Assembly (NCBI GenBank): GCA_024305105.1
Contig: JAMWZA010000004.1
Location: 7,876 to 71,875 of the forward strand
DNA from: Marinoscillum sp.
Lineage (GTDB): Bacteria > Bacteroidota > Bacteroidia > Cytophagales > Cyclobacteriaceae
Reading direction: 5' to 3'
Length of the DNA stretch: 64,000 nucleotides
Of this stretch, positions 17,091-48,008 are shown in pieces. Made by a program: the position numbers and the translations under genes. How positions within the stretch are numbered: position 1 is the stretch's first letter; the number at the start of each line of letters is the position of its first letter. The notes beneath the pieces are model-generated. The model saw nothing but the letters and a program-made list of their open reading frames with translations. It ran no database searches and was not told where the DNA came from.

Positions 17091-17094
<4 letters not shown>
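15685..17094 (-). CDS. S1 arylsulfatase, probable lipoprotein
   Basis: ADDLGWGD, CGPSRASMITG, GKWGL, FTSDNG, YLYWEF; lipobox WSSC. Confidence 0.93.
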
Positions 17095-21682
<4,588 letters not shown>

Positions 21683-32391: not shown

Positions 32392-32395
32392 GATC

Positions 32396-35300
32396 TTAAA
32401 ATTTCAGATTTGCACCAAATGTTACTGTTTTATAAAGGGGGGCGTTTCGGTTTCCATTACCACCACTTGCTCCTTCTGGATCGAAATCATCTACTGATGA
32501 AAATGTCAACAAATTTTGACCACCAACGAAAACTCTTAAACGATCTATTTTGATGCGCTCGGTTAGTTTTTTAGGAATGGTATAGCCAAATTCAATGTTT
32601 TTAAGTCTAAGGTAACTCGCATCACGTATGTAAAATGACGAGTTTAAAGCGTTATTTTGACCTCCAAGTCTTGGCAGATACTCACTAGGTTGTTCGGGTG
32701 TCCAGCGATTAACCCAATAGGATAAAACATTACTTCTATCATCTTCCATTGGGTATTGCCCATTACCAGTGATTAATCGATCAATATCATGTACTCCCTG
32801 GAACAAAATATCAATATCAAAACCACCAAATCGAACGTTTCCATTCAGGTTATACAACCATCCAGGGTATGGATTCCCAATAATTGTACGGTCATCGGCA
32901 TTTATCAAACCATCCGGCACACCATCTGGTCCTGATATATCTGCATACCTAATGTCACCAGGTCCGGTGTTGGCATTTCCAAACTGTGCTGGAGCTAAAA
33001 CCACTTCTTCCATTGTTTGGAAAATACCAACGGCTTGGTATCCATAATACGATCTCAGTGGATCGCCAATTCTAATGATGGTTGCTCCGCTGATGGTTTC
33101 TTCACCTCCATCTCCCAGTCCTGTTACTTCATTCGATAGGAACTTAGTAAAGTTACCTCCGATTGTATAACTAAGGCCACCAATATTATCGCGGTAGTTT
33201 ATGGCAAGTTCAATTCCCTTATTCACCATGGATGCGGCATTCTGAGCCGGAAGGTTCGTAGTACCAATAGTGCTGGGAATTGGGAAATTGTTGTATAGGA
33301 TATCGGAACTCTTACGTTCGTAATAGTCACCAGTAAGCTGAAGTTTGCTTTTGAAAAAACTGGCATCAAATCCTATATCAAATTGCTCTACCTCTTCCCA
33401 ACGTATATTGGGATTTGATAGGCCAGTCAAGGCAACTCCCCCTACATTTATATCATTGCCTAGTACGTAATCTAGGTTTGCATTGTAGGTTTGTTCATAA
33501 ATGTAATTCCCAATTCGGTCATTACCAGTTATCCCCCAGCTTCCACGAACTTTAAGGTTTGAAAGCCACGTAATATTTGCCATAAATGCTTCCTCCGAAA
33601 TACGCCATCCACCAGATGCCGAAGGAAAATAAGCATAGCGATTGCCAGGACCAAACTTCGACGATCCATCTCTTCTTAGATTAAATTCCAATAAGTATTT
33701 TCCATCATAATTGTAATTAATTCGGCCAAAATATGATTGGTAAGACTCTTCATTAGCACCACCAGAAACGGCTGGATCTAATACACCCCCGCCATTAAAT
33801 TCTTCAATATTATTAGTAGGAAACCCACTTAATGAACCAGAAAAGCCATCAGTTCGATCATATATGAACGATTGTCCAACTAAAACATCTATATTATTTT
33901 TTTCATTTATGGTTGTGCTGTATCGAAGAATGTTCTCATTGAGCAACCGATAACTGAAATTTGTACTATTGCCCAAGCTGTTAACCAAATCCTGATTGAC
34001 AATATTACCTTCCCAATCCCTAAGGACATATGTAGGGCTGAAATTAGACGATTGACCTGTTATAAAATTTAAACTCCCACTTGTCTCTAAAGTCAAGCCT
34101 TGTAAGATTTTTATTTTCAGGCCTAAGCGTTCGCTTATATTGATATTGTCATCTAAATTGTTTCCCAGAAAACCTCTACGAAGAGGATTAGTAGTTGGGA
34201 ACGAAAAATTATCACTTTCGTAAGCTCCATCAACAATTCCGTATTCACCATTACTGTAATAAACTGGAATAGTGGGAGACACTCGTTGAAAACTGTAAAT
34301 AATTCCATTATCTCCATCAAAAGCACCCCCTTGTGGACCGTTAACTCGTTTCCAAAAAGCATTAGTCACATTACTCAATGTTAGCCAATCTTTAACATCC
34401 GACTTTACATTCAAACTAAAGTTGTATCTACGTGATTTGAATTTACTTCGCACTATGGCTTCTTGTGTCAAATACCCTAATGACAACCTGTATGTAGTCT
34501 TTTCATTTCCTCCAGAAAACGATAAGCTATGGTTTTGAATAGGCGCATCCACTAGCAAGACTTTAGCCCAATCAGTATTGGAAAATTGATCAGGCATACT
34601 TCCGGTACGAATAGCTTCAATTTGATCGTCCGTATATCGGGGAGTAAAATTCGGTCCGTTTTGATTCTGGAATTTTTCATTCATCAAAGAAGCGTAGTTG
34701 TAAGCATCTAAGAACTCAGGAACGACCGTAGGACTCTGAGTACCAAAATAGTTATTATAGTTTACTTCAAACGTATTTTTCTTTCCCGTTTTAGTCGTCA
34801 CTACGATAACCCCATTGGCCCCTCTAGCTCCATAAATGGCACTGGCAGAAGCATCTTTTAAAACTGTAATTGATGCAATATCTGTTGGAGCAAGATTGTT
34901 AAATGGCCCTAAATTGTCATATTGTATATTATCAATCACCAAAAGTGGTGTGCTATTTCCAAAGGTCCCTACACCTCTAATCACAACCGATGAACCATCT
35001 TGACCTGGGGCACCAGACGTTTGTGTCAACTGAACTCCCGAGAACCTACCATATAGTAATTGACCACTATTGGTAACGGGTTGGTTTACAGCTTCTTTGA
35101 ATTCAATAGTTTCCACAGCTCCTGTAAGGTTTACCTTTTTTTGCTCACCGTAACCTACCACTACCACTTCGCTTAATTCTGCGATATCCACTTCCAGAGA
35201 AACATCAAGATATGATTTACCCGCAGTGTTCAATTCCAAGGGTTTATATCCAACATAGCTAATGCGTATTTTTGCACTAGGTTCGGAGAGGTTAAGGGAA

Positions 35301-35491
35301 AATTTACCATCAATATCGGTTACTGTACCATTTTCTGGATTTGATAGATCCAAGATTACGGCGCCAGGTATAGTAGATCCATCCTCTTCATCGGTTACCT
35401 GACCACTAATTTTAGTCTGTTCTCCTTGTGCCCACAGGCTTGTGATACCCACTAGCCAGACAATCAAGAATAGTTGTAGATGCTTCTTCAT
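32396..35491 (-). CDS. susC: SusC/RagA TonB-dependent transporter
   Basis: [65 protein letters not shown]; terminal ...GANLKF. Confidence 0.97.
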   Translation of the reverse strand: [1031 protein letters not shown]

Positions 35492-35660: not shown

Positions 35661-35742
35661 AGTAAAGAGCAAAGATCAACCTGTTATCGCCTTAGTAGTC
35701 CATTACTTTTTATCGTAATGTGGTTGATCTTTGCTCTTTACT
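35661..35742 (-). terminator. 21-bp perfect inverted repeat overlapping the stop codon of the upstream gene
   Basis: agtaaagagcaaagatcaacc (35661-35681) and ggttgatctttgctctttact (35722-35742), with a 40-nt loop containing cattac/gtaatg. Confidence 0.6.
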
Positions 35743-37420
35743 TTATAATCAACCTCAGTGTCTCCACGTTTTTCTGATGCTTAACTTGCAGTAGATAAAA
35801 TCCCTTGGGTAGATTATTAACATGGTACAAACCATTCTCCTTATCGATCCTAAATTGCTTCCCAGTCGAGTCGAAAACCATTAGCTCGTCTATCCCCTCT
35901 TGATTTGAAAGTTGAAAATAGTCACTGGTTGGGTTCGGATAAATCTGAGGCCCGGAAACGTGGAGGTTCTGAAGAATTGTTTCTTCTACTATGTTTATCT
36001 GTAATGAACCTGAGATACCATTGGCTGTCGCAGATACGGTAACTACACCTTGTTTGATTGCCTGTAAGAGGCCATCCTGGTCGATTGTAGCTTCTCCATT
36101 TTCATTAGCTACGGACCAATTTACTTCAACATTTGTTGCATTTTCAGGCTCTATTGTAGCGGACATTTGTAAGGTCTCACCTTCGATAAGAGTAACAATG
36201 TCATCCATAGAGGAAACTAGAACATTCGTTACTGGAACTACTTTTGTATAAATTTCTATTCTGTCGAGATACGGTGATTGAATTCCTTCTACGGGACTCA
36301 AAGCCAACTTATTCTCGCCAGATTTCAGTTCAACAGGCACAACAAGCAACGCACTTGATGTAGCGAAACAAAAACCTGGAGATTGAAAGGATGAGACTAT
36401 AATTGTATCATCCTCGTTGATTATGACTTCAAGTTCGGATTGGACATTGGCAAAATAACCAATCTCCAGGTTGTATATTCCATCTGTATCTACTGTAATA
36501 CTACCAAACTCTACAACTCTATCACCTTCTCCTGCATTTAGTCCGCCCATGAATATAAGACCATCGCCTGATTTATTGCCACAACCTCCGGCTGAGATAG
36601 ATACTTCGGCATTAGACAGGTCCCCCTCCTCGGCTTCAGAGCCGAAAACAAGATCCCCTTCTCTTACCACTTCAATTGCTAGAGAATCTGTAACTCCTGA
36701 ATTGTCTTGTGCTGCGGCCACCACTGTGACCATACCAGGTTTCTCTGCTGTCAGCAATCCTTCATTTGTTATAGATGCTCTCCCTATATCATTTACCACA
36801 GACCATGTGACTTCTTTTACAGCAGCATCCTCAGGAGAAACCTCAGCAGAAAATTGCAGCGTACCTCCCAAAAGGACAGCAATGGAATCATTGGACGAAG
36901 CAACAACGATAGAGTTGACGGGTTCGCCATTCGGAAGTTCAATGATTGTCACCACGTCCAGGTAAGGCGAATTAATACCCTCAACAGGGCTCAACTTCAG
37001 GTTGTTGTCTCCTTCTTTCAGCTCTATATCAAAGGTGTATTTTGCGCTTTCAGTTTCAAAGCAAAAACCAGGGGAAGCAAAATCTTTCTCGATTATAGTG
37101 TCAGTATCGTTGATAATGATCTCTAACTGAGATTCATTCTTGGCAAAATAGGTTAATTCAAAACTATATGTTCCTGCCTTGGATACGTTGATACCCGTGT
37201 AGCTGACATATCGATCACCATCACCGGATTGGTCTCCTCTCATGAAGATCAGACCTGAACCAGATTTATTGCTACAGCCTCCGGCTGAAACAGCAACACC
37301 CGCATTCGTTAGATCTCCATCCTCGGCTTCTTGAGTAAAAACAACAGTTTGTGCAAATAGTGTATTGCTAAGCGTAGCATAACACAATGCAAAAAGGACA
37401 ATTCGTAATTTTCTTATCAT
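35738..37420 (-). CDS. Secreted non-catalytic protein: two CBM6/35-like modules, two Ig-like (Big_2) domains, T9SS CTD
   Basis: EAE(D/E)G modules at aa 26-161 and 257-392; Big_2-like units (V.PE.A....VTWSV...A.I...GLL.A...G.VTV.A); C-terminal IYPNPTSD. Confidence 0.82.
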   Translation of the reverse strand: MIRKLRIVLFALCYATLSNTLFAQTVVFTQEAEDGDLTNAGVAVSAGGCSNKSGSGLIFMRGDQSGDGDRYVSYTGINVSKAGTYSFELTYFAKNESQLEIIINDTDTIIEKDFASPGFCFETESAKYTFDIELKEGDNNLKLSPVEGINSPYLDVVTIIELPNGEPVNSIVVASSNDSIAVLLGGTLQFSAEVSPEDAAVKEVTWSVVNDIGRASITNEGLLTAEKPGMVTVVAAAQDNSGVTDSLAIEVVREGDLVFGSEAEEGDLSNAEVSISAGGCGNKSGDGLIFMGGLNAGEGDRVVEFGSITVDTDGIYNLEIGYFANVQSELEVIINEDDTIIVSSFQSPGFCFATSSALLVVPVELKSGENKLALSPVEGIQSPYLDRIEIYTKVVPVTNVLVSSMDDIVTLIEGETLQMSATIEPENATNVEVNWSVANENGEATIDQDGLLQAIKQGVVTVSATANGISGSLQINIVEETILQNLHVSGPQIYPNPTSDYFQLSNQEGIDELMVFDSTGKQFRIDKENGLYHVNNLPKGFYLLQVKHQKNVETLRLIIK

Positions 37421-37616: not shown

Positions 37617-40600
37617 CTAGACTTCTACCTTTTTCTTTTCCTTATAGTCAGATGGAAGGCATCCAAATTGTTCTTTAAAACTACGTTTGAAATACTTGTA
37701 GTCGTTGAACCCAACTTTGTAGGCTACCTGACTTAAGTTTAAGTCCTCCTTGAGGATGATGGAGGCGGCCAGCTTCAAGCGTACAGATCGAATAAATGCG
37801 GTAATGGATAGGCCTGTCAGCGATTTGATTTTACGGTAAAGAGTGGATTGGCTCATGTGGAATTCTTCCATCAATGACTCGATTCCAAAATCTTCATTGT
37901 GAACGTTGCTCTCTACCAGTGACATGGTTCTCTGCACAAATTGCTCTTCCAGGTCTGTAACTCTAGAGTCATTTGGCTCAAATCGTACTTTTTTAAGGAG
38001 ATAGTCTCTGATTTTTTTACGATTTTCAAGCTGGCTGAAAATTCTGGATTTTACAATTTCAGGATTGAAAGGCTTTTTGATATAATCATCTGCGCCCGTC
38101 TGAAGTCCGGTGACCTCATAGACCGTGGAAGTACGTGCAGTAAGTAAAATAACGGGAATATGTGAAGTAGAAATTTGAGTCTTTACAGCCTTACAGAGGG
38201 CAATTCCGTCCATTTCAGGCATCATAATGTCACTGACAATCAAATCAGGCACCTCTAAAGAAGCCGTTTCAAGGGCTTGTTTACCATTCACGGCCTTCAA
38301 AACGTGATAATCAAGTTCCAGAATAGATTCCAGATAGTGGAGAATCTCCAAATTATCATCCACAAGCAAGATGGTGTAATCCTTTTCGTCATCTCCCAGG
38401 TTGGTTGGAATATCACTGACGGCATATCTTTCCAAGTCATCACTACCCATGAAGTTATGAATTCGTTCAGATTCTGAAAACGCCGAATTTCCATTGAAAG
38501 GCAAATGAACGGTAAAAGTCGTTCCTTGAGACTCCTTACTCATTACCTCTATTCTGCCATGGTGCAGTTCAATGATATTTTTTGTAATGGTCAATCCGAT
38601 ACCTGTCCCGACGATCTTAGCTGATTTGCTTGTGTTTATCTGGTAAAATCTGTCGAAAATCCTTTCAAGATGCTCAGCGGGAATGCCTTGTCCAGAGTCG
38701 GTAACACTGACCACACATTCGTTATCACCTGACTCTACCTTCATGACTACACGATCACCCTTATCTGAATACTTCAAGGCATTGGAAAGCAAATTACAGA
38801 GTACGATTTCCATTTTATCCCGATCGAACAAAAGTTGTATATCATTTTCAGAGATAAATTTTAACTCCACTCCTTTAGATTCAGACGCTTGTTTAAATGA
38901 AAGGTATATCTCATGTGCAAAAGCCGAAAAATCTCCCATGGCTACCTGAAGTCTTAGCATTCCATTCTCTGACTTTCTAAAATCCAACAATTGTGAGATT
39001 AGATGAAGCAGACGTTTGGTATTGCGCTCTGCGCTAATCAATTTCGTGCGAATGGCATCAGGCACATTGGACAAGGCTAAAACTTCCGTTACAGGACCCA
39101 AAATTAGGGTCAGAGGAGTCCGCAGTTCATGAGAAATGTTTGTAAAAAAGGTAAGCTTAGCCTCAGTCAATTCGTGTTCTTTTTCTTTGGCAATCCTCGC
39201 TATCTCAAGATTCGACTGAAGCCGTGTTTGTTTTTGCGAAAACCTTCTGATTAGTAGAATAATGATGAATAGCACCAGATAGTAAAAGGCATAGGCGTAC
39301 CATGAAAGCCATATTGGTGGCAAAATCCTAAGCTTGAGAATACGTGCTTTACCAAAATGCTGATTATCACGTGAAGCTTGGATTTTGAGTTGGTAAGTGC
39401 CTGCAGATAAACCAGTAAAAGTGATCTCAGAGTGATTTGCATTATAGACCCACGAATCATGAGCCCCTTCCAATTGATAACGATATGTGATATTTAATGG
39501 ATCCATGTAATCATTAGGGGTAAAATGGACTGAGAAAACTACTTCTTCATGAGTAAGGGTGATTTCATCAGTGTAAACGATACTTCTGGTTATTAAAACC
39601 CTATCATTGACCAGCTCCCCCACTTTGACCAATTTACCGTCCACCGTGAGACCTGTGAGTACAACTTCCGGAGGATTGGTATTGGACGTGATTCTACTTG
39701 GGTCAAATGCGATAATTCCCTTTTGTCCGCCAAAGAAAAGAAGGCTGTTGGATCTGAACACAGCATTGATATTGAAGGCTCCGACCTGAATACCAACCCC
39801 ATGCCCATAATTCAAAAATGTTTTAGTATCCAAGGCCATTTTAGATATCCCCTGGGGAGTACTGACCCAGAGGTTTCCGGAAAAGTCTGATGTGACAGCA
39901 GAAATAAAATCACTGGATAGACCGTCACTCATATCGTAACGATCTACCTTGCTATCTTTTGGGTCAAGATGTAGTAACCCAGAGGGTGTCCCAGCCCACA
40001 GAGTTCCATCACTATGTGGATGTAGCGCGTGTATGATTACACTCAAAAACTTCTCTTTAAATAAGTCATTGTGGTGAGTAAATCGGTTATACAAAGGATT
40101 GTAAAGAAATAGTCCATTATAGGTTCCTATCCATAAATTTCCTGTAGAGTCAACTTCGATAGCACTGATTCTTTCGCCCGTCAAATCGGTATCAAACCAA
40201 TTTGCACGCTCTAATCTATTGGTATCTTTTCCACTAAATATTATCTCGGAATTGATTACTGCTAACCCATTTTGTTGGGTTCCAATCCACAAATAGCCTT
40301 GATCGTCGTAATGCAGCACCATTACTTTATATTGAGGCGATGATATTCGCTCAAACATCATTTTTCCACGAACAAGTTTTGCAATAAATAGTCCTCTGGA
40401 CGTCCCTACCAGTAAATAGTCACTTACTTCCAGAAATGCATTGACTTTTAGTGGATAAGGTTTCAACTCTACTTTTTTAAAAGAAGCTTGATGTTCACTG
40501 AACCATATCCCTCCCCGATTTCTTCCACTCCAGTAACGTCCGTAACGGTCGACATGGAAGGCATGGACGTTGTGGTCTTGATTTGACTCGTCTTCAGATA

Positions 40601-41606
40601 AGTTGTTCTCTAAATTGGTGAACCCATTTGATGGTGAGATTTTTATTATACCGGCAAATCCTGTGGCGATCCAAACCAAATTGTGGCTATCAATATGTAT
40701 GTCCAGAATAACCCCATGATTGACTCCGTTTACACCAAAATTGTCCGGTGAGAGCTTAGCGGGTGATGGAAGATCATGAGGCTTGACAACATAAACACTA
40801 CTTCCCCAACTTCCGATCCAAAGCTGCCCCTCTTTATCAAAGGCAAGACAAGTGACATAAGATTTATCCTTAAAATAGTCGTTATAACGACCTGATATTA
40901 AGCCACTTTTCGTATCAAGACAATAAACTCCTCCTTGACCTCCAAGTAGATACTGGTTCTTCACGGTATCCTTAACAATGCAATGAATATATTTTTTCTT
41001 CGGAAAGACTTGAACTTGCTTACCTGAGAGATTCCATTTACTCACGCTTGTACTGGAGACCACAAATACCTCATCGTCATCCACCAGAATATCTAAAACC
41101 CGTCCATCAAAGGGATGCTCTTTTAACGTAGAGTTTGTCGGATCTATAATGTAAAGACCCCTGCTCCATGTACCTACCCAAATCAGTCCATTGGGAGCTT
41201 CTCCTATGGACGTTACACGTACAGGAATTTCCTCATTAATCACCTGATTGAAATTGGTAAACCTGTCTTCTATTGGATCATACAAGCTCAACCCTCCGCT
41301 TTTGGTACCTACCCAAATTTTACCTCTTGAGTCCTTAAATACCGTTTCGATGTTTTCATTCTCAAGACCTGGATAATCATTTCCCGGCTTGTACAATCTA
41401 AACCCTGAACCATCAAATCTATTAAGACCTCCTTCGGTTGCAATCCATTTCAGCCCTTTATCATCTTCTATGATTTTTGACACATAGTTATTTGAAAGAC
41501 CAGATGAAACATCAATATAACTTCTGTTAGGTGATGAGACCTGCTGAGCCCAAAGGTTGTAGCAGGTCATAATCAAAAGAAGGAATATGTAACAATAAGC
41601 TCTCAA
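37617..41606 (-). CDS. Hybrid two-component system (beta-propeller sensor, Y_Y_Y, His kinase, receiver, AraC HTH)
   Basis: Reg_prop repeats (GLSNNYV, IWVGT), FFTNISHELRTPLT, NLLSNALKY, GTGIGL, PDLIVSDIMMP, GADDYIKKPF, YFKRSFKEQFG. TTG start. Confidence 0.97.
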   Translation of the reverse strand: MRAYCYIFLLLIMTCYNLWAQQVSSPNRSYIDVSSGLSNNYVSKIIEDDKGLKWIATEGGLNRFDGSGFRLYKPGNDYPGLENENIETVFKDSRGKIWVGTKSGGLSLYDPIEDRFTNFNQVINEEIPVRVTSIGEAPNGLIWVGTWSRGLYIIDPTNSTLKEHPFDGRVLDILVDDDEVFVVSSTSVSKWNLSGKQVQVFPKKKYIHCIVKDTVKNQYLLGGQGGVYCLDTKSGLISGRYNDYFKDKSYVTCLAFDKEGQLWIGSWGSSVYVVKPHDLPSPAKLSPDNFGVNGVNHGVILDIHIDSHNLVWIATGFAGIIKISPSNGFTNLENNLSEDESNQDHNVHAFHVDRYGRYWSGRNRGGIWFSEHQASFKKVELKPYPLKVNAFLEVSDYLLVGTSRGLFIAKLVRGKMMFERISSPQYKVMVLHYDDQGYLWIGTQQNGLAVINSEIIFSGKDTNRLERANWFDTDLTGERISAIEVDSTGNLWIGTYNGLFLYNPLYNRFTHHNDLFKEKFLSVIIHALHPHSDGTLWAGTPSGLLHLDPKDSKVDRYDMSDGLSSDFISAVTSDFSGNLWVSTPQGISKMALDTKTFLNYGHGVGIQVGAFNINAVFRSNSLLFFGGQKGIIAFDPSRITSNTNPPEVVLTGLTVDGKLVKVGELVNDRVLITRSIVYTDEITLTHEEVVFSVHFTPNDYMDPLNITYRYQLEGAHDSWVYNANHSEITFTGLSAGTYQLKIQASRDNQHFGKARILKLRILPPIWLSWYAYAFYYLVLFIIILLIRRFSQKQTRLQSNLEIARIAKEKEHELTEAKLTFFTNISHELRTPLTLILGPVTEVLALSNVPDAIRTKLISAERNTKRLLHLISQLLDFRKSENGMLRLQVAMGDFSAFAHEIYLSFKQASESKGVELKFISENDIQLLFDRDKMEIVLCNLLSNALKYSDKGDRVVMKVESGDNECVVSVTDSGQGIPAEHLERIFDRFYQINTSKSAKIVGTGIGLTITKNIIELHHGRIEVMSKESQGTTFTVHLPFNGNSAFSESERIHNFMGSDDLERYAVSDIPTNLGDDEKDYTILLVDDNLEILHYLESILELDYHVLKAVNGKQALETASLEVPDLIVSDIMMPEMDGIALCKAVKTQISTSHIPVILLTARTSTVYEVTGLQTGADDYIKKPFNPEIVKSRIFSQLENRKKIRDYLLKKVRFEPNDSRVTDLEEQFVQRTMSLVESNVHNEDFGIESLMEEFHMSQSTLYRKIKSLTGLSITAFIRSVRLKLAASIILKEDLNLSQVAYKVGFNDYKYFKRSFKEQFGCLPSDYKEKKKVEV

Positions 41607-41631
41607 ATACGACTGGTTTTATATCAGGGGG

Positions 41632-43188
41632 TTATGGCATGATGCCACGCTCACTTCGCTGCTTAATCTCTTCAATCTTGTTTTTCATTTCACTTAAAAG
41701 TTCGGGATACTCATTTGCTATATTGTGTGATTCATTGACATCTAAGGACAAATTATAGAGCTGCTCATCACGAGAAAGTCCCGACTCTACTTGTTTGTTA
41801 TTTATCCATGTGGGAAGTTGTTTCCCCTCAAGAGGAGAAATATATTTCCAATTATTCTTTCTTAAAGATAATGTAAACGACTCTTCCAACATGAATGTAC
41901 GTCCTTTACTTTCACCCATAAGTGTTTCCAAAAGTCCCTGACTATCTATGGCTTCTGTGTTTGCAAGCTGCTGACCGGTGAGTTGAGCTAGTGAAGCATA
42001 GATATCCACCTGAGATATTAGAGCGTTATTGATTTTTGGTTCATTGATTTTAGAAGGAAAGGAGACAATCATAGGTACTCTGGTTCCCGCTTCGAATGCA
42101 CTGTACTTACCCCCTCTGTAGGCTCCACCAGGACTGTGACTTCCCAGCATTTCTACAGCGAGATCTTCATAACCATCATTAAGTACTGGGCCGTTATCAC
42201 TCGTGAAAATAATCAGGGTATTTTCAGCAACCCCCAGTTCATCCAGACTTCTCATTACTTCCCCAGTCATCCAATCCATCTGCGCTATGGCATCTCCTCT
42301 GACACCCATCTCGCTTTTGCCTTTGAATCGTTCGTGAGGCAATCGAGGAACATGTATATCGTGAAAAGAGAAAAACAGGAAGAAAGGTTGGTCTTTTGAG
42401 GTCTCGATAAACTCTTTAGCTTTTCCAGTGAACACGTCAGGAAAATCCTCATCTACCCAAACTGCTGACTGTCCACCCCCCATAGTTCCTATCCTGCTCA
42501 CGCCATTTATAATCGTCTGACTATGCTGAGTATCCGCTTTCACCCGGAGCAGATCCGGACGTTCAAGTCCTGTTGGTCGATCACCCACCTTTTCTTCGTA
42601 ACTCACTACCAGGGGATCATTCGAAGACAGATTAACTACCCTGTGGTTTTCCAAATACACTGTAGGAACCCGATCTCCTGTAGCTGGAAGCAGGAAACTG
42701 TAATCAAAACCTACTTCGAGAGGTCCTGGTTTTACCTGATCGTTCCAGTCCACATCTCCTAAACCCAAACCAAGGTGCCATTTTCCAACTACTGCAGTAC
42801 GATACCCTGCTTGTTGTAGCATAGCAGGGAGTGTGGGTCTATCCATATTTATTAATAGTGGTGCATCCCCCGGCAGGATAGCTGCATTGCTTCTGAAGGC
42901 ATATTCTCCTGTGAGTAAAGAATACCGAGAAGGTGTACAAGTGGCCGCCGTAGAGTGTGCATCTGTGAACTGAATACCATTAGTTGCCAACCGGTCTACC
43001 GCTGGGGTTTTGACCCCCTGAGCACCGTAACATCCCAGATCTCCGTATCCAAGATCATCCACATAAAAAATAACAATATTGGGTAAATCAGGAGAGCTAG
43101 ATTCCCTGGTGGGAGAACTAGGTTGATTACTACATGAGTAAAAAAATAATGCGATTGTAAATAAAACAAAAAGTGATAAGTTTTTCAT
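41632..43188 (-). CDS. S1 arylsulfatase (S1_15-like), probable lipoprotein
   Basis: VDDLGYGD, CTPSRYSLLTG, GKWHLG, TGDRVP, DIHVPR; lipobox FYSC. The subfamily call is from recalled motifs. Confidence 0.92.
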   Translation of the reverse strand: MKNLSLFVLFTIALFFYSCSNQPSSPTRESSSPDLPNIVIFYVDDLGYGDLGCYGAQGVKTPAVDRLATNGIQFTDAHSTAATCTPSRYSLLTGEYAFRSNAAILPGDAPLLINMDRPTLPAMLQQAGYRTAVVGKWHLGLGLGDVDWNDQVKPGPLEVGFDYSFLLPATGDRVPTVYLENHRVVNLSSNDPLVVSYEEKVGDRPTGLERPDLLRVKADTQHSQTIINGVSRIGTMGGGQSAVWVDEDFPDVFTGKAKEFIETSKDQPFFLFFSFHDIHVPRLPHERFKGKSEMGVRGDAIAQMDWMTGEVMRSLDELGVAENTLIIFTSDNGPVLNDGYEDLAVEMLGSHSPGGAYRGGKYSAFEAGTRVPMIVSFPSKINEPKINNALISQVDIYASLAQLTGQQLANTEAIDSQGLLETLMGESKGRTFMLEESFTLSLRKNNWKYISPLEGKQLPTWINNKQVESGLSRDEQLYNLSLDVNESHNIANEYPELLSEMKNKIEEIKQRSERGIMP

Positions 43189-43305
43189 GTTTGGTGCTTG
43201 CTGATAAATTAATCTGTCGGATGAAAAATAAGTCTACAATTCCGGTCAAAAATAAAGTAGTAGGCATGTAGCAGGGGTCACGCTCTGGTCACTATGGGGG
43301 ACAGA

Positions 43306-44985
43306 TCATTCAGAAAAAGACTCCTGCCATTCAATAGCTCCTATATCAGGGAGGTTGTCTATTGGATTACCCAAAATATCCTGTGATACATTAAGGCCAT
43401 CCTTCAAGCCTATGGCGTCCCCCGGAATTCGATGTATTTCGATACCCTTATTTGAAATCTTAGCCCCTTTTTTAGGTATAAAGGAATTCAGCCGTGTGCT
43501 CACAATACCAAACATATCTGCATCAATAATTGGTTCAGAATCCTGAATAGGGGCTGTCGATGGCCAACTATCTGCTTGCTGGTAAAGGTTGTTACTGAAG
43601 ATCACTGAATTACCTTCATTGTGTGTACTTGAATTCCACTTACTTTGATCATCCATGACCAATCTGGATTTACCAACATAAAATATGTTGTTGGCAATAA
43701 GTATCCCTGAGGCTGTAGGACTGATGGCTATCTTAGATTCGATTGAATCGCTCAAATAAATTGTGTTATTGTAGAAGTAGGTATTATATGGGCCTACACG
43801 TTCCTGATTATTACCTACATAACCACTCAACCAAAATATTTTACCATCCTGAAAGGCTCCATCTATTCCTTTTTGCCGACTGCCATCATTAAAACTAATA
43901 TTGTACCTGTACGCACAGTTTCGATTATTCCCAAGAACTTCACAGAAACCACCGGCATTGAAAGCACTGAAATTATATTGGAGAATAACATCTTTACAAT
44001 TGAAGTCAATGTGAGCTCCAGCTGAATCACCAGGACCCTGGGCGTACATTAGATGGTTATGTTCTATGAGAGCAGTGTGAGTGCCCCAAGTCCATAGACC
44101 ACTACCGCGCCCCCACATCCTACCATCCTCACTATTTCCTGAATGACTCACGTAGTTTCTTGCCACGTACAAATCCTCTACAAGGCTAAACTGCAAGCCA
44201 GGTCCGCCGACCCTTTTCACACTGCAATTGGTCACTTGGACATCACGGATTTTTTCTTTACCTCCAGTAAATTTTATACCAGTATGGGCTACATTCTCTA
44301 CAACGCATCCTTCGATTGCGACATGTGCAATCGAGGCTCCTTCTTTGTTGCTAATAACCCTTATTCCCCAACCGTAGGCTTGTGTGCCATTAGCTGTTTG
44401 TACTTCCTTTTTTCCTCTCTTCAATCCTGGGTTGTGATAAAAGATGTTCCTTATGTGCAAATTACGCATTTTAATGTGACTTGTCGATTGAGCTCCTGTT
44501 GCTTCTACCTTAATACCACATCGCATTCCCTCATCGTTACCTCTTCCCCCATCGGCTTGAACTCGAAGAGATTCTACAAGGATGTAGCTACAATTAATTA
44601 GGTGAATTCCATTAGAAAACGACAGGGCATCTACTGTGGCTAATGAGTCTGCCGTTTTCTCAGGAAAATAACTGGTCAATCGTATCGGAGCATTGGCATT
44701 TCCATGCATATCCTTTAGTACGATTGCTCCATGATACATCTGTCCTGCGGCCAGCATTATGTTATCTCCCGGATTCAGAGATAGGTCTTGCAGGTTTGAA
44801 AGCGTTTGCCATGGAGCACCTTCGGTTCCAGGATTCCTATCAGATCCTGCTTCACTATGGATATAATAGTCCGTGCAATATGAGTAATAGTGCCAAATTA
44901 GAAATGTAAGTACGAATAGAAAGCGCATCTTTTTTTTAACAAAAGTCCTACTTCGGGTATTAAAGTGCGGGGACGTATTGATCAT
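43306..44985 (-). CDS. Right-handed parallel beta-helix protein, unclassified (putative GH/PL)
   Basis: Repeating N/C ladder strands; N-terminal YYI...GSD.NPG...PWQTL; motif GPGDSAGAHIDF...QYN...GGFCEVLGNN. Likely start MRFLF at 44928. Confidence 0.8.
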   Translation of the reverse strand: MINTSPHFNTRSRTFVKKKMRFLFVLTFLIWHYYSYCTDYYIHSEAGSDRNPGTEGAPWQTLSNLQDLSLNPGDNIMLAAGQMYHGAIVLKDMHGNANAPIRLTSYFPEKTADSLATVDALSFSNGIHLINCSYILVESLRVQADGGRGNDEGMRCGIKVEATGAQSTSHIKMRNLHIRNIFYHNPGLKRGKKEVQTANGTQAYGWGIRVISNKEGASIAHVAIEGCVVENVAHTGIKFTGGKEKIRDVQVTNCSVKRVGGPGLQFSLVEDLYVARNYVSHSGNSEDGRMWGRGSGLWTWGTHTALIEHNHLMYAQGPGDSAGAHIDFNCKDVILQYNFSAFNAGGFCEVLGNNRNCAYRYNISFNDGSRQKGIDGAFQDGKIFWLSGYVGNNQERVGPYNTYFYNNTIYLSDSIESKIAISPTASGILIANNIFYVGKSRLVMDDQSKWNSSTHNEGNSVIFSNNLYQQADSWPSTAPIQDSEPIIDADMFGIVSTRLNSFIPKKGAKISNKGIEIHRIPGDAIGLKDGLNVSQDILGNPIDNLPDIGAIEWQESFSE

Positions 44986-45086
44986 TACAATGGTGTATTT
45001 TGGTCAAATGTTTGGCTAGTAACAAATCTGCATCTATCACAAACAACTTATCTTCATTCCATTTATAAGATCAATTACTCATAGTA

Positions 45087-47723
45087 TCAATCTACATCGT
45101 TTGACTCAACTTTAATTAGTCTTTGATTAAAAACCCTACCAGATATGGTGATTGCTCTTACTATATAATGCCCGGGTTTCATTCCTGAGCAATCTAGCAT
45201 GGACGTTTGCGAGTTGTAGGTGGCTTTCACCAGTTTACCAGAAACGTTATACACTTCTAACTTAAGTAGGGGTAAGTCTGGATGATCGATGTGACACTGA
45301 ACTGTCGCTGGATTTGGATAAAGTCGCAACGCCTGTTCCTTAGAAGAGAGGTTCATAACATACGCAAAGCCTTCACCGTTAGAGGCTCCCAGGCTCGTCG
45401 GTTCGGATAAGTTCACGGGATTCCCAAAGTAGTCAAATGACACCTTTTCAGTAATATTTTCAAAAATCCTCTTTCCCGCCATCGGAAATACGGGTTCACC
45501 AAAAACATTCACCGACTTCTTTTCCGCTGGGCTACCTTTTACCAAGTGATAGCCTTTCGCATACAAGGCCCCAGGCTCTGTATATCCTGGATTTTCAAAA
45601 ATGGCCTGATTGTCCTTTCCCGTCAAACGATCAGCAATACGCCCATGATACAGATTTGCTTTTATGTAGACCTGTCCCCCCATTTGCTTGAAAGTGGTTT
45701 CCTGACCTATCTCTGCCCCTGAGGCAGCATACAAAATATTGTTGAAGATAAAGGTATTGGCTCCTTGCAAGAATATATCAGTATCGAGGTTATCCCCTAA
45801 GTATATTGAATTATTGTAGATGTAATTGCTATCAGATGCGATGCGATTTTGCCCTGCAAAAGAAGAAATCCAAAAGGTACGCGCATCTTCCCTGAGCCCG
45901 TCATTTACACTGACATTGTATCGATAGGTGGCGTAGGTATTGTTACCCAGAATCTCCACAAATCCACCCTCACTATCCTCACTATAGTTGTATTGAAGGA
46001 TCACATATTTGTTTCCAAAGTCTATGTGCATACCATAAGAGTCTTTGGGCCCTCTGATATGCAGAGATTTGTTATATTGGGCTACGACATTTCTACAGCC
46101 GAAAAACCAAGCCCCGCTGCCCCTGGCAGCCATTCGGGGGTCTACATCAGATCCAGGGTATTCAAAGGTATTACCCTCTACCAGACAATTGTAAGTTCTA
46201 CCTGGAGTGATCCCTGACCCGCCGGTTTCAAATGTGTGATTGTCTCGAAAAATGAAGTCCATGTTTCGATTTAGGCTATCATTTCCTATCCCAGGGTCGC
46301 CCCCTGCATGTTGAGACCATATGCCAAACTTTCCTGTGTGCGTAATGTAGCAATTTTCCACAATCACATCCCGGATATGTTTCTCTTTTCCTCTGGTTGA
46401 ATTCTTCTCGCTTCGGAGATAAATTCCAGCGACTGTCAATGCGTCAAAGTCCAATCCATTGGTACTTATCGCAAAGATTTCTTTTATCGTCAAATCCCTG
46501 AAACGGAAGTTGCGCATTATTTTATCTCCATCATTGTGAACAAAAATTCCATATCCCTCCTGATCATTTTCACCCTGTCTTGTGAAGCGTCGATCGTTCG
46601 TGATAGACAGTCCTTCCATGACTATACCTTCCTGATTCCGGATCAAGATAGCACTTGTATAAGCGCCTCCTTCTGCCCGAGCACCATCAATAATGGGTTT
46701 TGGGCCACTACCATATCTGCCATAAATGATTGGCACCTCTGCAGAACCGGAGCTATTGACCCTCAATTGGCCAATGAACGTATCACCACCCTTGAACAAT
46801 ATGGAATCTCCAGGTAAAAACCTTAACTCACTTATCATCTCCAAGGAGCGAAGTGGGGCCTCCGGACTTAGGCCATTTAATGTATCATTTCCATTTTGGC
46901 TAACGTAAAATGTACCAGGCCCTGATACCACATAAATTGGGACGGACTTTGGAACCGTTTGACTCAGTCCTTCCGAGCGGTTTGTCAAACGCATAACGCC
47001 TTCCGCTGATCCAGAACCTGTGCTCACAAATGTGGTAGTTGCCTCACGTTGTCCAGCTGGAATTCTGATCGTCGTAGATAGCAGTTCAAACGAGTTCTTG
47101 TCAATCCCACTAACTTCCAGTTCAAAAGACAACTCTTCCATAACAATAGAATTGGTCCTGAATGTCAGCACCTGTGAATCCCCTGGAGTAAGGCGAATCC
47201 AGCGAGGAAGGATCTCTATTGATGGTAGCTCTGCTTCAACAATAATTAGTTTATCCAAAAACGGCGAATTACTTCCCTCTATTGGTGAAAACTGGAGAAC
47301 ATTAAGGCCAGCCTTCAGAGGAATCTGTATGGATATTTCGTGAGCAGAACCCTGATAGCACCAATTTGCAGAAGGAAAATCAAGCGTAAATGAACTATCG
47401 TTGACTGAAACCTTTAGAGAATTGGTCGAATGATTAAAATAGTCCAGCCTAAGTTCAAAAATTCCAGACTTGTCGACATCCACATCATTAAATTCTAGGA
47501 TGTTCGCCCCTTCAGAACCAAGTTTTACAAACCCACCTCCACTGGCATTTTCACAACCATATGACACTTCCGAAGTACTTCCAGTAAGTTTACCACTTTC
47601 GGCTTCCGATTGAAACCAAACATTTGAGTACGACAATCGGTCTATTAAAGCAGCAGACTGGGCGTAAACCAGGCAACTGATCAAAAACAGTCCGAATCCG
47701 AGAGAATAACCTAATAACTTCAT
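45087..47723 (-). CDS. CBM6/35-like module + Ig/Calx-like domain + beta-helix + T9SS CTD
   Basis: EAESG module at aa 35-163; beta-helix from aa ~270 with GPKDSYGMHIDF...QYN...GGFVEILGNN; C-terminal LYPNPA...GHYIV. Confidence 0.82.
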   Translation of the reverse strand: MKLLGYSLGFGLFLISCLVYAQSAALIDRLSYSNVWFQSEAESGKLTGSTSEVSYGCENASGGGFVKLGSEGANILEFNDVDVDKSGIFELRLDYFNHSTNSLKVSVNDSSFTLDFPSANWCYQGSAHEISIQIPLKAGLNVLQFSPIEGSNSPFLDKLIIVEAELPSIEILPRWIRLTPGDSQVLTFRTNSIVMEELSFELEVSGIDKNSFELLSTTIRIPAGQREATTTFVSTGSGSAEGVMRLTNRSEGLSQTVPKSVPIYVVSGPGTFYVSQNGNDTLNGLSPEAPLRSLEMISELRFLPGDSILFKGGDTFIGQLRVNSSGSAEVPIIYGRYGSGPKPIIDGARAEGGAYTSAILIRNQEGIVMEGLSITNDRRFTRQGENDQEGYGIFVHNDGDKIMRNFRFRDLTIKEIFAISTNGLDFDALTVAGIYLRSEKNSTRGKEKHIRDVIVENCYITHTGKFGIWSQHAGGDPGIGNDSLNRNMDFIFRDNHTFETGGSGITPGRTYNCLVEGNTFEYPGSDVDPRMAARGSGAWFFGCRNVVAQYNKSLHIRGPKDSYGMHIDFGNKYVILQYNYSEDSEGGFVEILGNNTYATYRYNVSVNDGLREDARTFWISSFAGQNRIASDSNYIYNNSIYLGDNLDTDIFLQGANTFIFNNILYAASGAEIGQETTFKQMGGQVYIKANLYHGRIADRLTGKDNQAIFENPGYTEPGALYAKGYHLVKGSPAEKKSVNVFGEPVFPMAGKRIFENITEKVSFDYFGNPVNLSEPTSLGASNGEGFAYVMNLSSKEQALRLYPNPATVQCHIDHPDLPLLKLEVYNVSGKLVKATYNSQTSMLDCSGMKPGHYIVRAITISGRVFNQRLIKVESNDVD

Positions 47724-48008
47724 CAGTCAAAAATGATCTCAAAATGACAGATCAAGGGGTACAGTTTATTAGGAGAAAGGGACTAATCAATCAAACCTGT
47801 TTTCCCAACTAGAAAACGACTGGGAACATACGTTTTTGGTATCGCTGATTCTGATCGGGGTAGAATTTCCAAACGTACCGTTGACGATACCTGCTTCCAT
47901 AAAAAAGTAAAGCCTCCGTCCATATGGGAACGAGTGACTTTTGATCGAATATGAGAAATCAGAAACATATATAAAAGGGATGCTTTAACTGCCACCCTGT
48001 TAGAGTCT

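What the first reader, a model, noticed from the sequence alone, without database searches (positions are those of the whole stretch)
43306..47723. Tandem paralogous beta-helix proteins with a shared D/H/D/E motif: candidate new CAZyme family
Seen: both share R..RGSG.W..G...N...GP.DS.G.HIDF....VILQYN.S....GGF.E.LGNN....YRYN.S.NDG (D320/H325/D327/E349 in the 559-aa ORF; D561/H566/D568/E590 in the 878-aa ORF). One is stand-alone with a signal peptide; the other has the locus CBM and a T9SS CTD. Known: beta-helix GHs and PLs (GH28, GH82, GH110, PL1, PL6, PL9) favour anionic glycans and use clustered acidic residues. I cannot place this motif in a named family. Inference: extracellular and periplasmic versions of a new depolymerase for a sulfated polymer.
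Basis: partly seen in the sequence, partly recalled or inferred. Interest (0 to 1): 0.72.

Follow-up and report, generated by a model that had tools for sequence, protein, structure and literature searches.

The report
Sulfatase-linked GH136-type beta-helix glycosidase pair
The two neighbouring beta-helix proteins are real paralogs, but they are distant, uncharacterised relatives of an existing enzyme family (GH136, the lacto-N-biosidases), not a new family, and they belong to a large branch that almost always sits beside, or is fused to, sulfatases and so probably cuts a sulfated algal sugar polymer.

Summary
Both ORFs exist at the stated coordinates, are paralogs (30% identity over 420 aa, E 2e-45), and carry D/H/D/E at exactly the stated residues. 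All four residues are invariant in 120 of 120 relatives of the 559-aa protein. A family profile hits only GH136 lacto-N-biosidase structures in the PDB (E 1e-31 to 1e-37, end to end on LnbX). A confident AlphaFold model (pLDDT 92.9) has GH136 as its best folds by about seven orders of magnitude or more. A profile built from three characterised GH136 enzymes hits A and B at about 1e-18 and no other ORF in the window. D320/D327 (D561/D568 in B) align with the published GH136 acid/base and nucleophile. H325 and E349 are specific to this clade, where the lacto-N-biosidases have Asp and Met. Unlike characterised GH136 enzymes, this clade shows no LnbY/GH136-I helper. In 56 of 79 genomes a sulfatase is directly adjacent, and some B-type members are fused to a sulfatase. 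Usual partners are S1_15 and S1_19-like sulfatases, GH2, GH43 exo-beta-1,3-galactanase-like and GH128-like enzymes. Most likely these are retaining beta-glycosidases for a sulfated galactose-rich algal glycan: B secreted by the T9SS with a CBM35-like module, A periplasmic. The substrate is unproven.

The parts
45087..47723 (-). ORF B, 878 aa: signal peptide, CBM35-like module, Ig-like linker, GH136-type beta-helix, T9SS type A CTD
47229..47624 (-). B aa ~34-165: CBM35-like 'locus CBM', also present at 29438-30814 and twice in 35738-37420
   Evidence: blastp E 1e-19 to 1e-23. A profile of the four copies hits CBM35 structures 2wz8 at 8.8e-5 and 2vzp at 2.4e-3. The orthologous region of P0139 hits Pfam CBM_35 at 8.2e-6. 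Present in 44 of 56 B-family proteins.
45399..46916 (-). B aa ~270-775: GH136-type right-handed beta-helix catalytic domain
   Evidence: phmmer against 6kqs 9.8e-19 over aa 271-608 and against 7v6m 5.9e-15. Canonical GH136 mini-profile 2.6e-18.
45888..46127 (-). B aa 533-612: catalytic block with D561 (predicted acid/base), H566, D568 (predicted nucleophile), E590
45111..45323 (-). B aa 801-871: T9SS type A C-terminal sorting domain
   Evidence: PF18962 4.5e-9 and TIGR04183 8e-11
43306..44985 (-). ORF A, 559 aa as listed (probable true start M20 at nt 44928): signal peptide plus stand-alone GH136-type beta-helix
43876..44121 (-). A aa 289-370: catalytic block with R293, W298, W300, D320 (predicted acid/base), H325, D327 (predicted nucleophile), QYN336-338, E349, R360
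41632..43188 (-). S1_15 sulfatase directly downstream of A (117-bp gap): predicted galactose/GalNAc-6-O-sulfatase, a conserved partner of the A family
   Evidence: 9bas S1_15A 5.4e-206 and 9bau 4e-189. Activity described in PMC12549532. This type is present in 38 of 80 homologous loci.
37617..41606 (-). Hybrid two-component sensor/regulator (HTCS) of the locus
   Evidence: translation. Orthologous HTCS genes flank A homologs and occur in 31 of 80 loci.
30844..35491 (-). SusC (32396-35491) and SusD (30844-32391) outer-membrane import pair
   Evidence: 38 of 80 loci
35738..37420 (-). Surface glycan-binding candidate: two CBM35-like modules, Big_2, T9SS CTD
29438..30814 (-). GH128-like (Glyco_hydro_cc) glycosidase with a C-terminal CBM35-like module; a second copy with a T9SS CTD lies at 12282-13691
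   Evidence: PF11790 3.7e-52. GH128 structures 6uaq 3e-36. Co-occurs in 15 and 14 of 80 loci.
22094..23452 (-). S1_19-like sulfatase, the commonest neighbour of A homologs and the type fused to B homologs
   Evidence: 6bia, 6b0k, 9hh3 and 6prm at about 1e-100. Present in 52 of 80 loci. Fusions shown.
18473..21649 (-). GH2 LacZ-type beta-galactosidase, a frequent partner (29 of 80 loci)

Best explanation
A and B are two diverged copies of a GH136-type right-handed beta-helix glycoside hydrolase. They belong to a large, uncharacterised, mostly Bacteroidota branch of that family, marked by an invariant His and Glu beside the catalytic pair. By homology they should hydrolyse a beta-glycosidic bond with retention. 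D320 (B: D561) would act as general acid/base and D327 (B: D568) as nucleophile, with a Trp/Phe platform (W298/W300; B: W539/F541) holding the sugar on the non-reducing side. They work within a SusC/SusD locus that degrades a sulfated, galactose-rich algal glycan. B is exported by the type IX secretion system and targeted by a CBM35-like module, and makes the first cuts outside the cell. Fragments enter through SusC/SusD. A then acts in the periplasm in alternation with exo-sulfatases (S1_15 Gal/GalNAc-6-sulfatase next door, S1_19-like sulfatase) and with GH2 beta-galactosidase. Shown: homology, conservation of the catalytic residues, domain architecture, gene neighbourhood and fusions. Inferred: hydrolytic activity, stereochemistry, order of action, cellular location of A, and the substrate. 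My best guess for the substrate, a sulfated beta-1,3-linked galactan or arabinogalactan-like polymer, is only about 30% likely.
For: Homology to GH136. Single-sequence phmmer: B against 6kqs 9.8e-19, A against 7v6m 2.1e-12. The family profile hits only GH136 chains in the PDB: 6kqs and 7v6m 8.5e-37, 5gqc 2.4e-33 covering profile positions 18-545 of 546, 7v6i 1.3e-31, 24mr 1.7e-31. In the reciprocal test, a profile of LnbX, ErLnb136 and BsaX hits B at 2.6e-18 and A at 8.9e-18, no other window ORF, and 120/120 A-family and 56/56 B-family proteins. Fold: the model with pLDDT 92.9 and pTM 0.92 has GH136 as its top six Foldseek hits (4e-21 to 4e-14, TM up to 0.67), and the next fold is PL6 at 2e-7. 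Catalytic residues: ErLnb136 acid/base D568, nucleophile D575 and stacking W548 (PMC7335108) align with A D320, D327 and W300. These residues are invariant. Coupling to sulfatases: a sulfatase is immediately adjacent in 56 of 79 loci and within two genes in 66 of 79, and 25% of neighbouring ORFs are sulfatases. Flavilitoribacter has a minimal locus of HTCS-SusC-SusD-sulfatase-A. Single polypeptides combine sulfatase, CBM35-like module, GH136-like domain and CTD in at least nine 90%-identity clusters. Substrate hints: the S1_15 neighbour matches a Gal-6-sulfatase at 5e-206. The S1_19-like type matches carrageenan Gal-4-sulfatases. GH2 is in 29 of 80 loci. A GH43 closest to exo-beta-1,3-galactanases is in 23 of 80 loci. 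GH128-like and GH16 enzymes also recur. The same gene set recurs in L087. The window's DNA is found in algae and marine metagenome runs. Export: T9SS CTD on B.
Against: No member of this branch has been assayed, and the literature calls such loci 'enigmatic' (PMC9723794). Identity to characterised GH136 enzymes is only 17-21%. All characterised GH136 enzymes need the LnbY/GH136-I helper, which also contributes to the active site; it is absent here, so activity without it is assumed, not shown. H325 replaces an Asp that is conserved in the four lacto-N-biosidases compared, so the sugar bound at the -1 subsite may differ in unknown ways. The family also occurs in soil and freshwater Bacteroidota (Pedobacter, Parapedobacter, Flavihumibacter), so a purely seaweed substrate cannot explain the whole clade. 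The window itself has no GH43, and it does have SASA-type esterase and BNR genes that would also fit an animal-type glycan. Whether cleavage is exo or endo could not be judged, because the tools return no model coordinates.
Confidence: 0.7

Rival explanations
1. They are ordinary GH136 enzymes in function as well: exo-acting biosidases that release lacto-N-biose or galacto-N-biose type disaccharides (Gal-beta-1,3-HexNAc) from sulfated animal-type glycans such as mucin O-glycans, keratan-sulfate-like chains or invertebrate glycoconjugates, after desulfation.
For: This is the only activity known in the family. S1_15 sulfatases also act on GalNAc-6S and Gal-6S of host glycans (6s20 and 7p26; BT3333 is cited). 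The window has a SASA sialate-O-acetylesterase-family gene, two BNR/sialidase-like ORFs and a ROK kinase. The GH16 neighbours are closest to 6t2n. GH29 and GH95 fucosidases occur in some related loci.
Against: No GH20, GH33, GH112 or amino-sugar catabolic gene was found in the window. The Asp conserved in all four lacto-N-biosidases compared is His in every clade member, and the Met is Glu. There is no helper subunit. Frequent partners are GH43 exo-beta-1,3-galactanase-like and GH128-like enzymes, not hexosaminidases. The DNA comes from algae-associated samples.
Confidence: 0.13
2. They found a genuinely new CAZy family, related to GH136 only at the level of fold or clan.
For: Pfam and NCBIfam give only generic or far sub-threshold hits. 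NCBI names the homologs simply 'right-handed parallel beta-helix repeat-containing protein'. The canonical mini-profile matches only two blocks, the N-terminal cap and the catalytic block. The clade also has its own signature residues and partners.
Against: Sequence similarity to characterised GH136 enzymes is significant without any structural information (1e-12 to 1e-19 with single sequences, 1e-37 with a profile). It extends end to end on LnbX. Both catalytic residues and the QYN and RYN.S.ND blocks are shared. Published dbCAN surveys already label genes in sulfatase PULs of marine flavobacteria as GH136.
Confidence: 0.07
3. They are beta-helix polysaccharide lyases acting on a uronic-acid-containing sulfated polymer.
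For: PL6, PL9 and PL31 structures are the next-best folds. Some solved CBM35 modules bind uronic acids (my own knowledge of the proteins hit). There are weak Pfam hints to DUF4957 and DUF5123.
Against: The lyase fold matches are at least seven orders of magnitude weaker than the GH136 matches. There is no sequence hit to any PL. The conserved acidic pair matches a glycosidase nucleophile and acid/base. No GH88, GH105 or uronate-catabolism gene was seen in the window or among recurrent neighbours.
Confidence: 0.05
4. They are non-catalytic glycan-binding or adhesin-like beta-helix proteins.
For: Beta-helices often serve as binding scaffolds, and the locus holds other non-catalytic CBM/Ig/T9SS proteins.
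Against: Both catalytic Asp residues are invariant across several hundred diverged sequences. They are fused to sulfatases and CBMs in the manner of enzymes.
Confidence: 0.03

Closest known systems
GH136 lacto-N-biosidases: LnbX (Bifidobacterium longum, 5GQC), ErLnb136 (Eubacterium ramulus, 6KQS/6KQT), BsaX (7V6I), TnX (7V6M)
   Same: Right-handed beta-helix catalytic domain that aligns end to end. Same Asp acid/base and Asp nucleophile seven residues apart. Same Trp platform, and shared QYN, RYN.S.ND and C-terminal PDxGA.E blocks.
   Different: Identity is 17-21%. His replaces the Asp two residues before the nucleophile, Glu replaces Met on the next coil, and Gly-Ser replaces Ala-Ala before the Trp platform. 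There is no LnbY/GH136-I helper. The hosts are Bacteroidota SusC/SusD loci with T9SS export and CBM35-like modules, not Firmicutes or Actinobacteria HMO loci. The genes are linked or fused to sulfatases. The substrate is unknown and probably not a human-milk oligosaccharide.
[quoted passage not shown]
   Same: A marine flavobacterial locus combining dbCAN-annotated GH136 genes with sulfatases and having no assignable substrate. This is very probably the same clade.
   Different: I did not compare the sequences. That paper gives only an annotation, with no analysis of residues, architecture or partners.
Lambda-carrageenan cascade of Pseudoalteromonas distincta U2A (PMC12549532)
   Same: It uses a closely related S1_15 Gal-6-sulfatase (5e-206 to the window's enzyme) and a GH2 exo-beta-galactosidase, with glycosidases and exo-sulfatases acting in strict alternation.
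   Different: That pathway uses GH150 and GH110 glycosidases and S1_8 sulfatases. It has no GH136-like or GH128-like enzyme.
   Same: The general right-handed parallel beta-helix scaffold.
   Different: No sequence similarity was detected. PL6 and PL9 appear only as weak fold matches (about 1e-6 to 1e-7), and GH28, GH82 and GH110 are not among the top 50.

Membership tests
GH136 (CAZy glycoside hydrolase family 136) | Significant sequence similarity of the catalytic module to a biochemically characterised member | tested here: met
   phmmer gives B against 6kqs 9.8e-19 and A against 7v6m 2.1e-12. The family profile gives 8.5e-37 to 6kqs and 7v6m and 2.4e-33 to 5gqc, end to end. A profile of LnbX, ErLnb136 and BsaX hits B at 2.6e-18 and A at 8.9e-18.
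GH136 (CAZy glycoside hydrolase family 136) | Right-handed beta-helix fold closest to GH136 structures | tested here: met
   The pLDDT 92.9 model has 7v6i, 7v6m, 5gqc and 6kqt as its top hits (4e-21 to 4e-14). The next fold is at 2e-7.
GH136 (CAZy glycoside hydrolase family 136) | Catalytic Asp (acid/base) and Asp (nucleophile) seven residues apart, plus an aromatic stacking platform | tested here: met
   D320/D327 in A and D561/D568 in B align with ErLnb136 D568/D575. W300 in A aligns with W548, and B has F541 there. The residues are invariant in the clade.
GH136 (CAZy glycoside hydrolase family 136) | Score above threshold with the CAZy/dbCAN GH136 model | not testable with these tools
   No dbCAN or CAZy library is available here. 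The surrogate mini-profile matches in two blocks of about 20% of the model each, so a coverage rule could fail. Indirect support comes from published dbCAN GH136 calls in sulfatase PULs.
GH136 as characterised so far (lacto-N-biosidase type) | Obligate GH136-I / LnbY helper subunit or N-terminal helical domain | tested here: not met
   The minimal locus HTCS-SusC-SusD-sulfatase-A has no extra gene. No recurrent unknown neighbour in 80 loci fits a helper. N-terminal extensions of relatives are CBM-like. Unannotated window ORFs give no hit. No LnbY sequence was available for a direct search. This is a property of the characterised members, not part of the CAZy definition.
GH136 as characterised so far (lacto-N-biosidase type) | Active-site residues conserved in the four lacto-N-biosidases compared: Asp of the W-D-x-D motif and Met on the next coil | tested here: not met
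   The clade has His and Glu at these positions: H325 and E349 in A, H566 and E590 in B.
GH136 as characterised so far (lacto-N-biosidase type) | Retaining release of lacto-N-biose (EC 3.2.1.140) | not testable with these tools
   This needs enzyme assays.
Beta-helix polysaccharide lyases (PL1, PL6, PL9, PL31) | Sequence similarity to a PL family and lyase-type catalytic residues | tested here: not met
   There is no PL hit by sequence. Only generic fold matches of about 1e-6 to 1e-7 were found.
GH28 / GH82 / GH110 beta-helix hydrolases | Sequence or best-fold similarity to these families | tested here: not met
   They are absent from the PDB sequence hits and from the top 50 fold hits.
T9SS type A cargo | C-terminal Por_Secre_tail sorting domain | tested here: met
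   B aa 801-871 matches PF18962 at 4.5e-9 and TIGR04183 at 8e-11, both above their cut-offs. A has none.
CBM35 | Sequence similarity of B's N-terminal module to CBM35 | tested here: inconclusive
   A profile of the four window copies hits 2wz8 at 8.8e-5 and 2vzp at 2.4e-3. The ortholog P0139 hits Pfam CBM_35 at 8.2e-6, just below the gathering score. B itself gives no direct Pfam hit.

The most novel reading that the evidence does not exclude
The H/E-signature clade would be a helper-independent, sulfatase-coupled subfamily of GH136 with a new activity: a retaining beta-galactan-active enzyme, for example one releasing sulfated beta-1,3-galacto-oligosaccharides or galactobiose. If so, A and B would be the key depolymerases of a widespread but unassigned class of sulfatase-rich PULs in marine and soil Bacteroidota. 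The His-Glu pair and nearby invariant basic residues would then adapt the GH136 active site to a sulfated galactose in place of GlcNAc.
Probability: 0.3. Interest if true: 0.7.

Novelty: new variant of a known kind. Interest (0 to 1): 0.45.

Why it matters
GH136 is known only from gut bacteria that feed on human-milk and mucin glycans, and every characterised member needs a dedicated helper protein. This work shows a much larger environmental branch: 565 clusters at 50% identity at E ≤ 1e-30, and 366 hits among species-representative genomes. It keeps the catalytic pair, has dropped the helper, has its own His/Glu signature, and is wired or fused to sulfatases. Assigning its activity would explain PULs that marine surveys currently call enigmatic. 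It would add a degradation step for a sulfated algal glycan relevant to marine carbon turnover, and it would broaden the known chemistry of a CAZy family. For the scan itself, the lesson is that 'no named domain' in Pfam or NCBI does not mean a new family.

Tried and rejected
- Direct Pfam and NCBIfam scans of A and B gave only Beta_helix, the T9SS tail and sub-threshold hits, which is not enough to name the family.
- The first structure model, from 13 sequences, was poor (pLDDT 68.8, disordered C-terminus). I replaced it with a 120-sequence model.
- The promoter and terminator scan of 41000-48600 found no more sites than its shuffled controls, so I draw no operon boundaries from it.
- The search for an LnbY-type helper was negative. 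It covered recurrent neighbour clusters, N-terminal extensions of relatives and unannotated window ORFs.
- I considered the lyase hypothesis and GH28/GH82/GH110 membership and rejected both for lack of any sequence signal.
- With default HMMER filters, the canonical GH136 mini-profile skipped A and B. This turned out to be the bias filter, not a lack of similarity.
- Literature searches for GH136 together with galactan, sulfated, sulfatase or marine found no functional study.
- The Thalassotalea B-like gene sits alone beside a ribosomal operon and gave no substrate clue.
- Groove or pocket mapping of the conserved residues was not possible, because the structure tool returns no coordinates.

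Full report
**Observation.** They are paralogs, with 30% identity over 420 residues and E 2e-45, and they are the only such pair in the window. Direct indexing confirms D320/H325/D327/E349 in A and D561/H566/D568/E590 in B within the quoted motif. B ends in a T9SS type A sorting domain at aa 801-871. It starts with a module (aa ~24-183) that recurs at the C-terminus of the Glyco_hydro_cc protein at 29438-30814 and twice in the protein at 35738-37420. That module is CBM35-like. A is a signal peptide followed directly by the beta-helix. Alignments with homologs begin at M20, so the listed ORF is probably 19 codons too long.

**What the proteins are.**
- Comparison with solved structures does place it. 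B matches the GH136 lacto-N-biosidase ErLnb136 (6KQS) at 9.8e-19 over aa 271-608, and A matches TnX (7V6M) at 2.1e-12.
- A profile of 13 family members hits only GH136 chains in the whole PDB: 6KQS and 7V6M at 8.5e-37, LnbX (5GQC) at 2.4e-33 covering profile positions 18-545 of 546, 7V6I at 1.3e-31 and 24MR at 1.7e-31.
- For a reciprocal test I rebuilt the aligned parts of LnbX, ErLnb136 and BsaX from that output (the lengths checked out) and made a small canonical GH136 profile. It hits B at 2.6e-18, A at 8.9e-18, no other window ORF, and all 120 A-family and 56 B-family sequences in hand. HMMER's default bias filter hides the hits to A and B themselves.
- An AlphaFold model of A from a 120-sequence alignment is confident (pLDDT 92.9, pTM 0.92). 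Its six best Foldseek matches are all GH136 (4e-21 to 4e-14, TM up to 0.67), and the next fold, PL6 lyases, is at 2e-7.

**The motif.** Pichler et al. 2020 (PMC7335108) identify D568 as acid/base, D575 as nucleophile and W548 as the platform stacking the galactose of bound lacto-N-biose in ErLnb136. In the HMMER alignments, the only Asp pair seven residues apart in that region of the 6KQS chain is at indices 570 and 577, an offset of +2 that also fits W548. That pair aligns with A D320/D327 and B D561/D568, and the Trp aligns with A W300 and B F541. The same columns hold Asp in LnbX, where chain indices 382/389 would be D411/D418 if the construct offset is 29, as I recall from the LnbX structure paper, which I did not read here.

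Aligning A, B and the four characterised enzymes to the family model gives two groups:
- Shared by all: W298, W300 (Phe in B), N310, D320, D327, Q336-Y337-N338, R360, N362 and D367.
- Specific to this clade: H325 (Asp in all four GH136 enzymes), E349 (Met) and G294-S295 (Ala-Ala).

So half of the "D/H/D/E" motif is the GH136 catalytic pair, and the other half is a signature that separates this branch from the lacto-N-biosidases. Conservation is extreme. All four residues are present in 120 of 120 A-family sequences. In the B family D, H and D are in 55 of 55 and E in 53 of 55. Among the top 150 representatives the counts are 132/132, 131/132, 131/132 and 113/131. In the model, H325 and E349 each sit in the middle of short strands 24 residues apart, which is one coil. 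This suggests they stack on the same outward-facing ladder as D327. That is an inference from periodicity, since no coordinates were available.

**Size and spread of the family.**
- The word-indexed search found more than 1,900 relatives of A at about 50% identity, all unnamed or called "right-handed parallel beta-helix repeat-containing protein".
- An exhaustive profile search of 1.84 billion cluster representatives found 565 at E ≤ 1e-30 and 4,331 at E ≤ 1e-10.
- Among 185,579 species-representative genomes there are 366 relatives. They are almost all Bacteroidota and cover marine genera (Leeuwenhoekiella, Polaribacter, Marinifilum, Carboxylicivirga, Flammeovirga) and soil or freshwater genera (Pedobacter, Parapedobacter, Flavihumibacter, Runella).
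- The B type is rarer, with 74 hits.
- The window's own DNA occurs in algae and marine metagenome runs.

**Context.** The window is one large SusC/SusD locus, almost entirely on the minus strand. It holds at least eleven S1 sulfatases, a LacZ-type GH2, two GH128-like enzymes, a SASA-family esterase, BNR proteins, an HTCS, an AraC regulator, sugar kinases and several T9SS-tagged proteins.

Across 79 homologous loci from different species:
- A sulfatase is immediately adjacent to the A homolog in 56 loci (same strand in 52) and within two genes in 66. Sulfatases make up 25% of all neighbouring ORFs.
- Two sulfatase types dominate. One is like window 22094-23452, in 52 of 80 loci, and is closest to S1_19 carrageenan galactose-4-sulfatases at about 1e-100. 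The other is like 41632-43188, the gene directly downstream of A, in 38 of 80 loci. It matches the S1_15A galactose-6-sulfatase of the lambda-carrageenan cascade at 5e-206.
- Other recurrent partners are SusC/SusD (38 loci), HTCS (31), GH2 (29), a GH43 closest to exo-beta-1,3-galactanases (23 loci; 6EUF 3e-60, 7BYS, 3VSF, 5FLW), GH128-like (15 and 14), SASA-like esterase (11), GH29 (7) and GH16 (6).
- Flavilitoribacter nigricans has a minimal locus of HTCS-SusC-SusD-sulfatase-A followed by the ribosomal protein operon.
- The tandem arrangement of B-type next to A-type recurs in 10 of 80 loci and in L087.

The most telling finding is that at least nine 90%-identity clusters of the B family are single polypeptides with the order sulfatase (S1_19-like), CBM35-like, Ig-like, GH136-like, T9SS CTD. 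A fusion of this kind argues strongly that the glycosidase and the sulfatase act on the same molecule.

**The missing helper.** Every characterised GH136 enzyme needs LnbY or the fused GH136-I helical domain, which wraps the helix and contributes to the active site. I found no counterpart:
- The minimal locus has no spare gene.
- None of the recurrent unknown neighbour clusters fits a helper. They resolve to GH43, an esterase, a small CBM-CTD protein, GH29, GH16, SusD and a large GH116-like protein.
- N-terminal extensions in wider relatives are CBM_4_9 or similar beta-rich modules.
- The window's unannotated ORFs give no hit.

No LnbY sequence was available for a direct search, so this negative result is strong but not absolute.

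**Mechanism proposed.**
- Shown: homology to a retaining beta-glycosidase family, with both catalytic carboxylates and the aromatic platform conserved; export signals; CBM; neighbourhood and fusions.
- Inferred: B is secreted or surface-anchored by the T9SS, binds the polymer through its CBM35-like module and makes the initial cuts. Oligosaccharides enter via SusC/SusD. A, in the periplasm, alternates with exo-sulfatases (6-O and probably 4-O) and GH2 beta-galactosidase. The HTCS senses an intermediate.
- Substrate: the partner set (Gal-6S and Gal-4S type sulfatases, beta-galactosidase, exo-beta-1,3-galactanase-like GH43, beta-1,3-glycanase-like GH128 and GH16) points to a sulfated galactose-rich glycan, perhaps with a beta-1,3-linked backbone. 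I put this at only about 30%. An animal-type sulfated glycan releasing LNB or GNB-like units remains a serious rival (about 13%), given the SASA and BNR genes in the window. The lyase, new-family and non-catalytic readings are unlikely.

**Comparison with the literature.** No paper in the library reports activity for a GH136 outside human-milk and mucin glycans. Marine genome surveys list dbCAN GH136 hits. [quoted passage not shown] The existence of such genes is therefore known at annotation level, but their distinct signature, helper independence, sulfatase fusions and partner set have not been described in the library I could search.

**Verdict.** Interest is moderate (0.45). It is not a new fold or family, but it is a large, coherent, uncharacterised clade whose assay is straightforward and would resolve a recurring unknown in marine PUL annotation.

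Noticed in passing
P0123, P0139, P0145-P0150, P0173 (relatives of window 45087-47723); L087 10001-14368: B-type GH136-like domains occur fused in one polypeptide to an N-terminal S1 sulfatase. The order is sulfatase, CBM35-like, Ig-like, beta-helix, T9SS CTD, and the proteins are 1,180-1,455 aa long.
   Followed up: yes
L002 11653-13869 (Labilibaculum antarcticum): Directly downstream of the A homolog lies a 738-aa protein that combines a sulfatase domain with a GH16 domain. This is another glycosidase-sulfatase fusion in the same kind of locus.
   Followed up: no
window 54677-57412 (minus strand): This 911-aa ORF has its own signal peptide, then a Por_Secre_tail-like segment at aa 88-154 near the N-terminus instead of the C-terminus, then a VWA domain. 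It also overlaps the next ORF (53269-54714). It may be two genes run together or a mis-set stop.
   Followed up: partly
window 43306-44985 and 45087-47723: With default HMMER filters, a profile of three characterised GH136 enzymes reports most family members but silently drops A and B themselves. With --nobias or --max they score 60-62 bits. Routine pipelines could miss them for this reason.
   Followed up: yes
window 15685-21649 (minus strand): The GH2 gene and two sulfatase genes overlap by 4 bases at each junction (18473-21649 / 17091-18476 / 15685-17094). This suggests a translationally coupled glycosidase-sulfatase operon.
   Followed up: no
window 1661-9229 (minus strand): A 2,522-aa T9SS cargo protein has a purple-acid-phosphatase/metallophosphoesterase head followed by many Ig-like and InlB-B-type repeats. 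Its function in a glycan locus is unclear.
   Followed up: no
window 44929-44985: The first 19 codons of ORF A are probably not translated. Homolog alignments and a typical signal peptide begin at M20.
   Followed up: partly
L001 10001-12626 and L086 7153-12388: In Flavilitoribacter (Bacteroidota) and in Thalassotalea (Gammaproteobacteria), the GH136-like gene lies right beside the rpoA-rplQ end of the ribosomal protein operon. This is probably coincidence. In Thalassotalea the gene has no sulfatase or PUL neighbours.
   Followed up: no
window 1-64000: Thirty-one of the 32 ORFs of 200 aa or more are on the minus strand, and GC skew is negative in every 2-kb bin. The whole 64 kb looks like one co-oriented carbohydrate-utilisation island.
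   Followed up: no
window 26862-28025 and 57462-58706 (minus strand): Two BNR/sialidase-like beta-propeller ORFs, one with only weak hits, sit in a locus otherwise suggestive of algal galactan use. They may be new glycosidases, or they may hint at a sialic-acid-like or Kdo-like sugar in the substrate.
   Followed up: no
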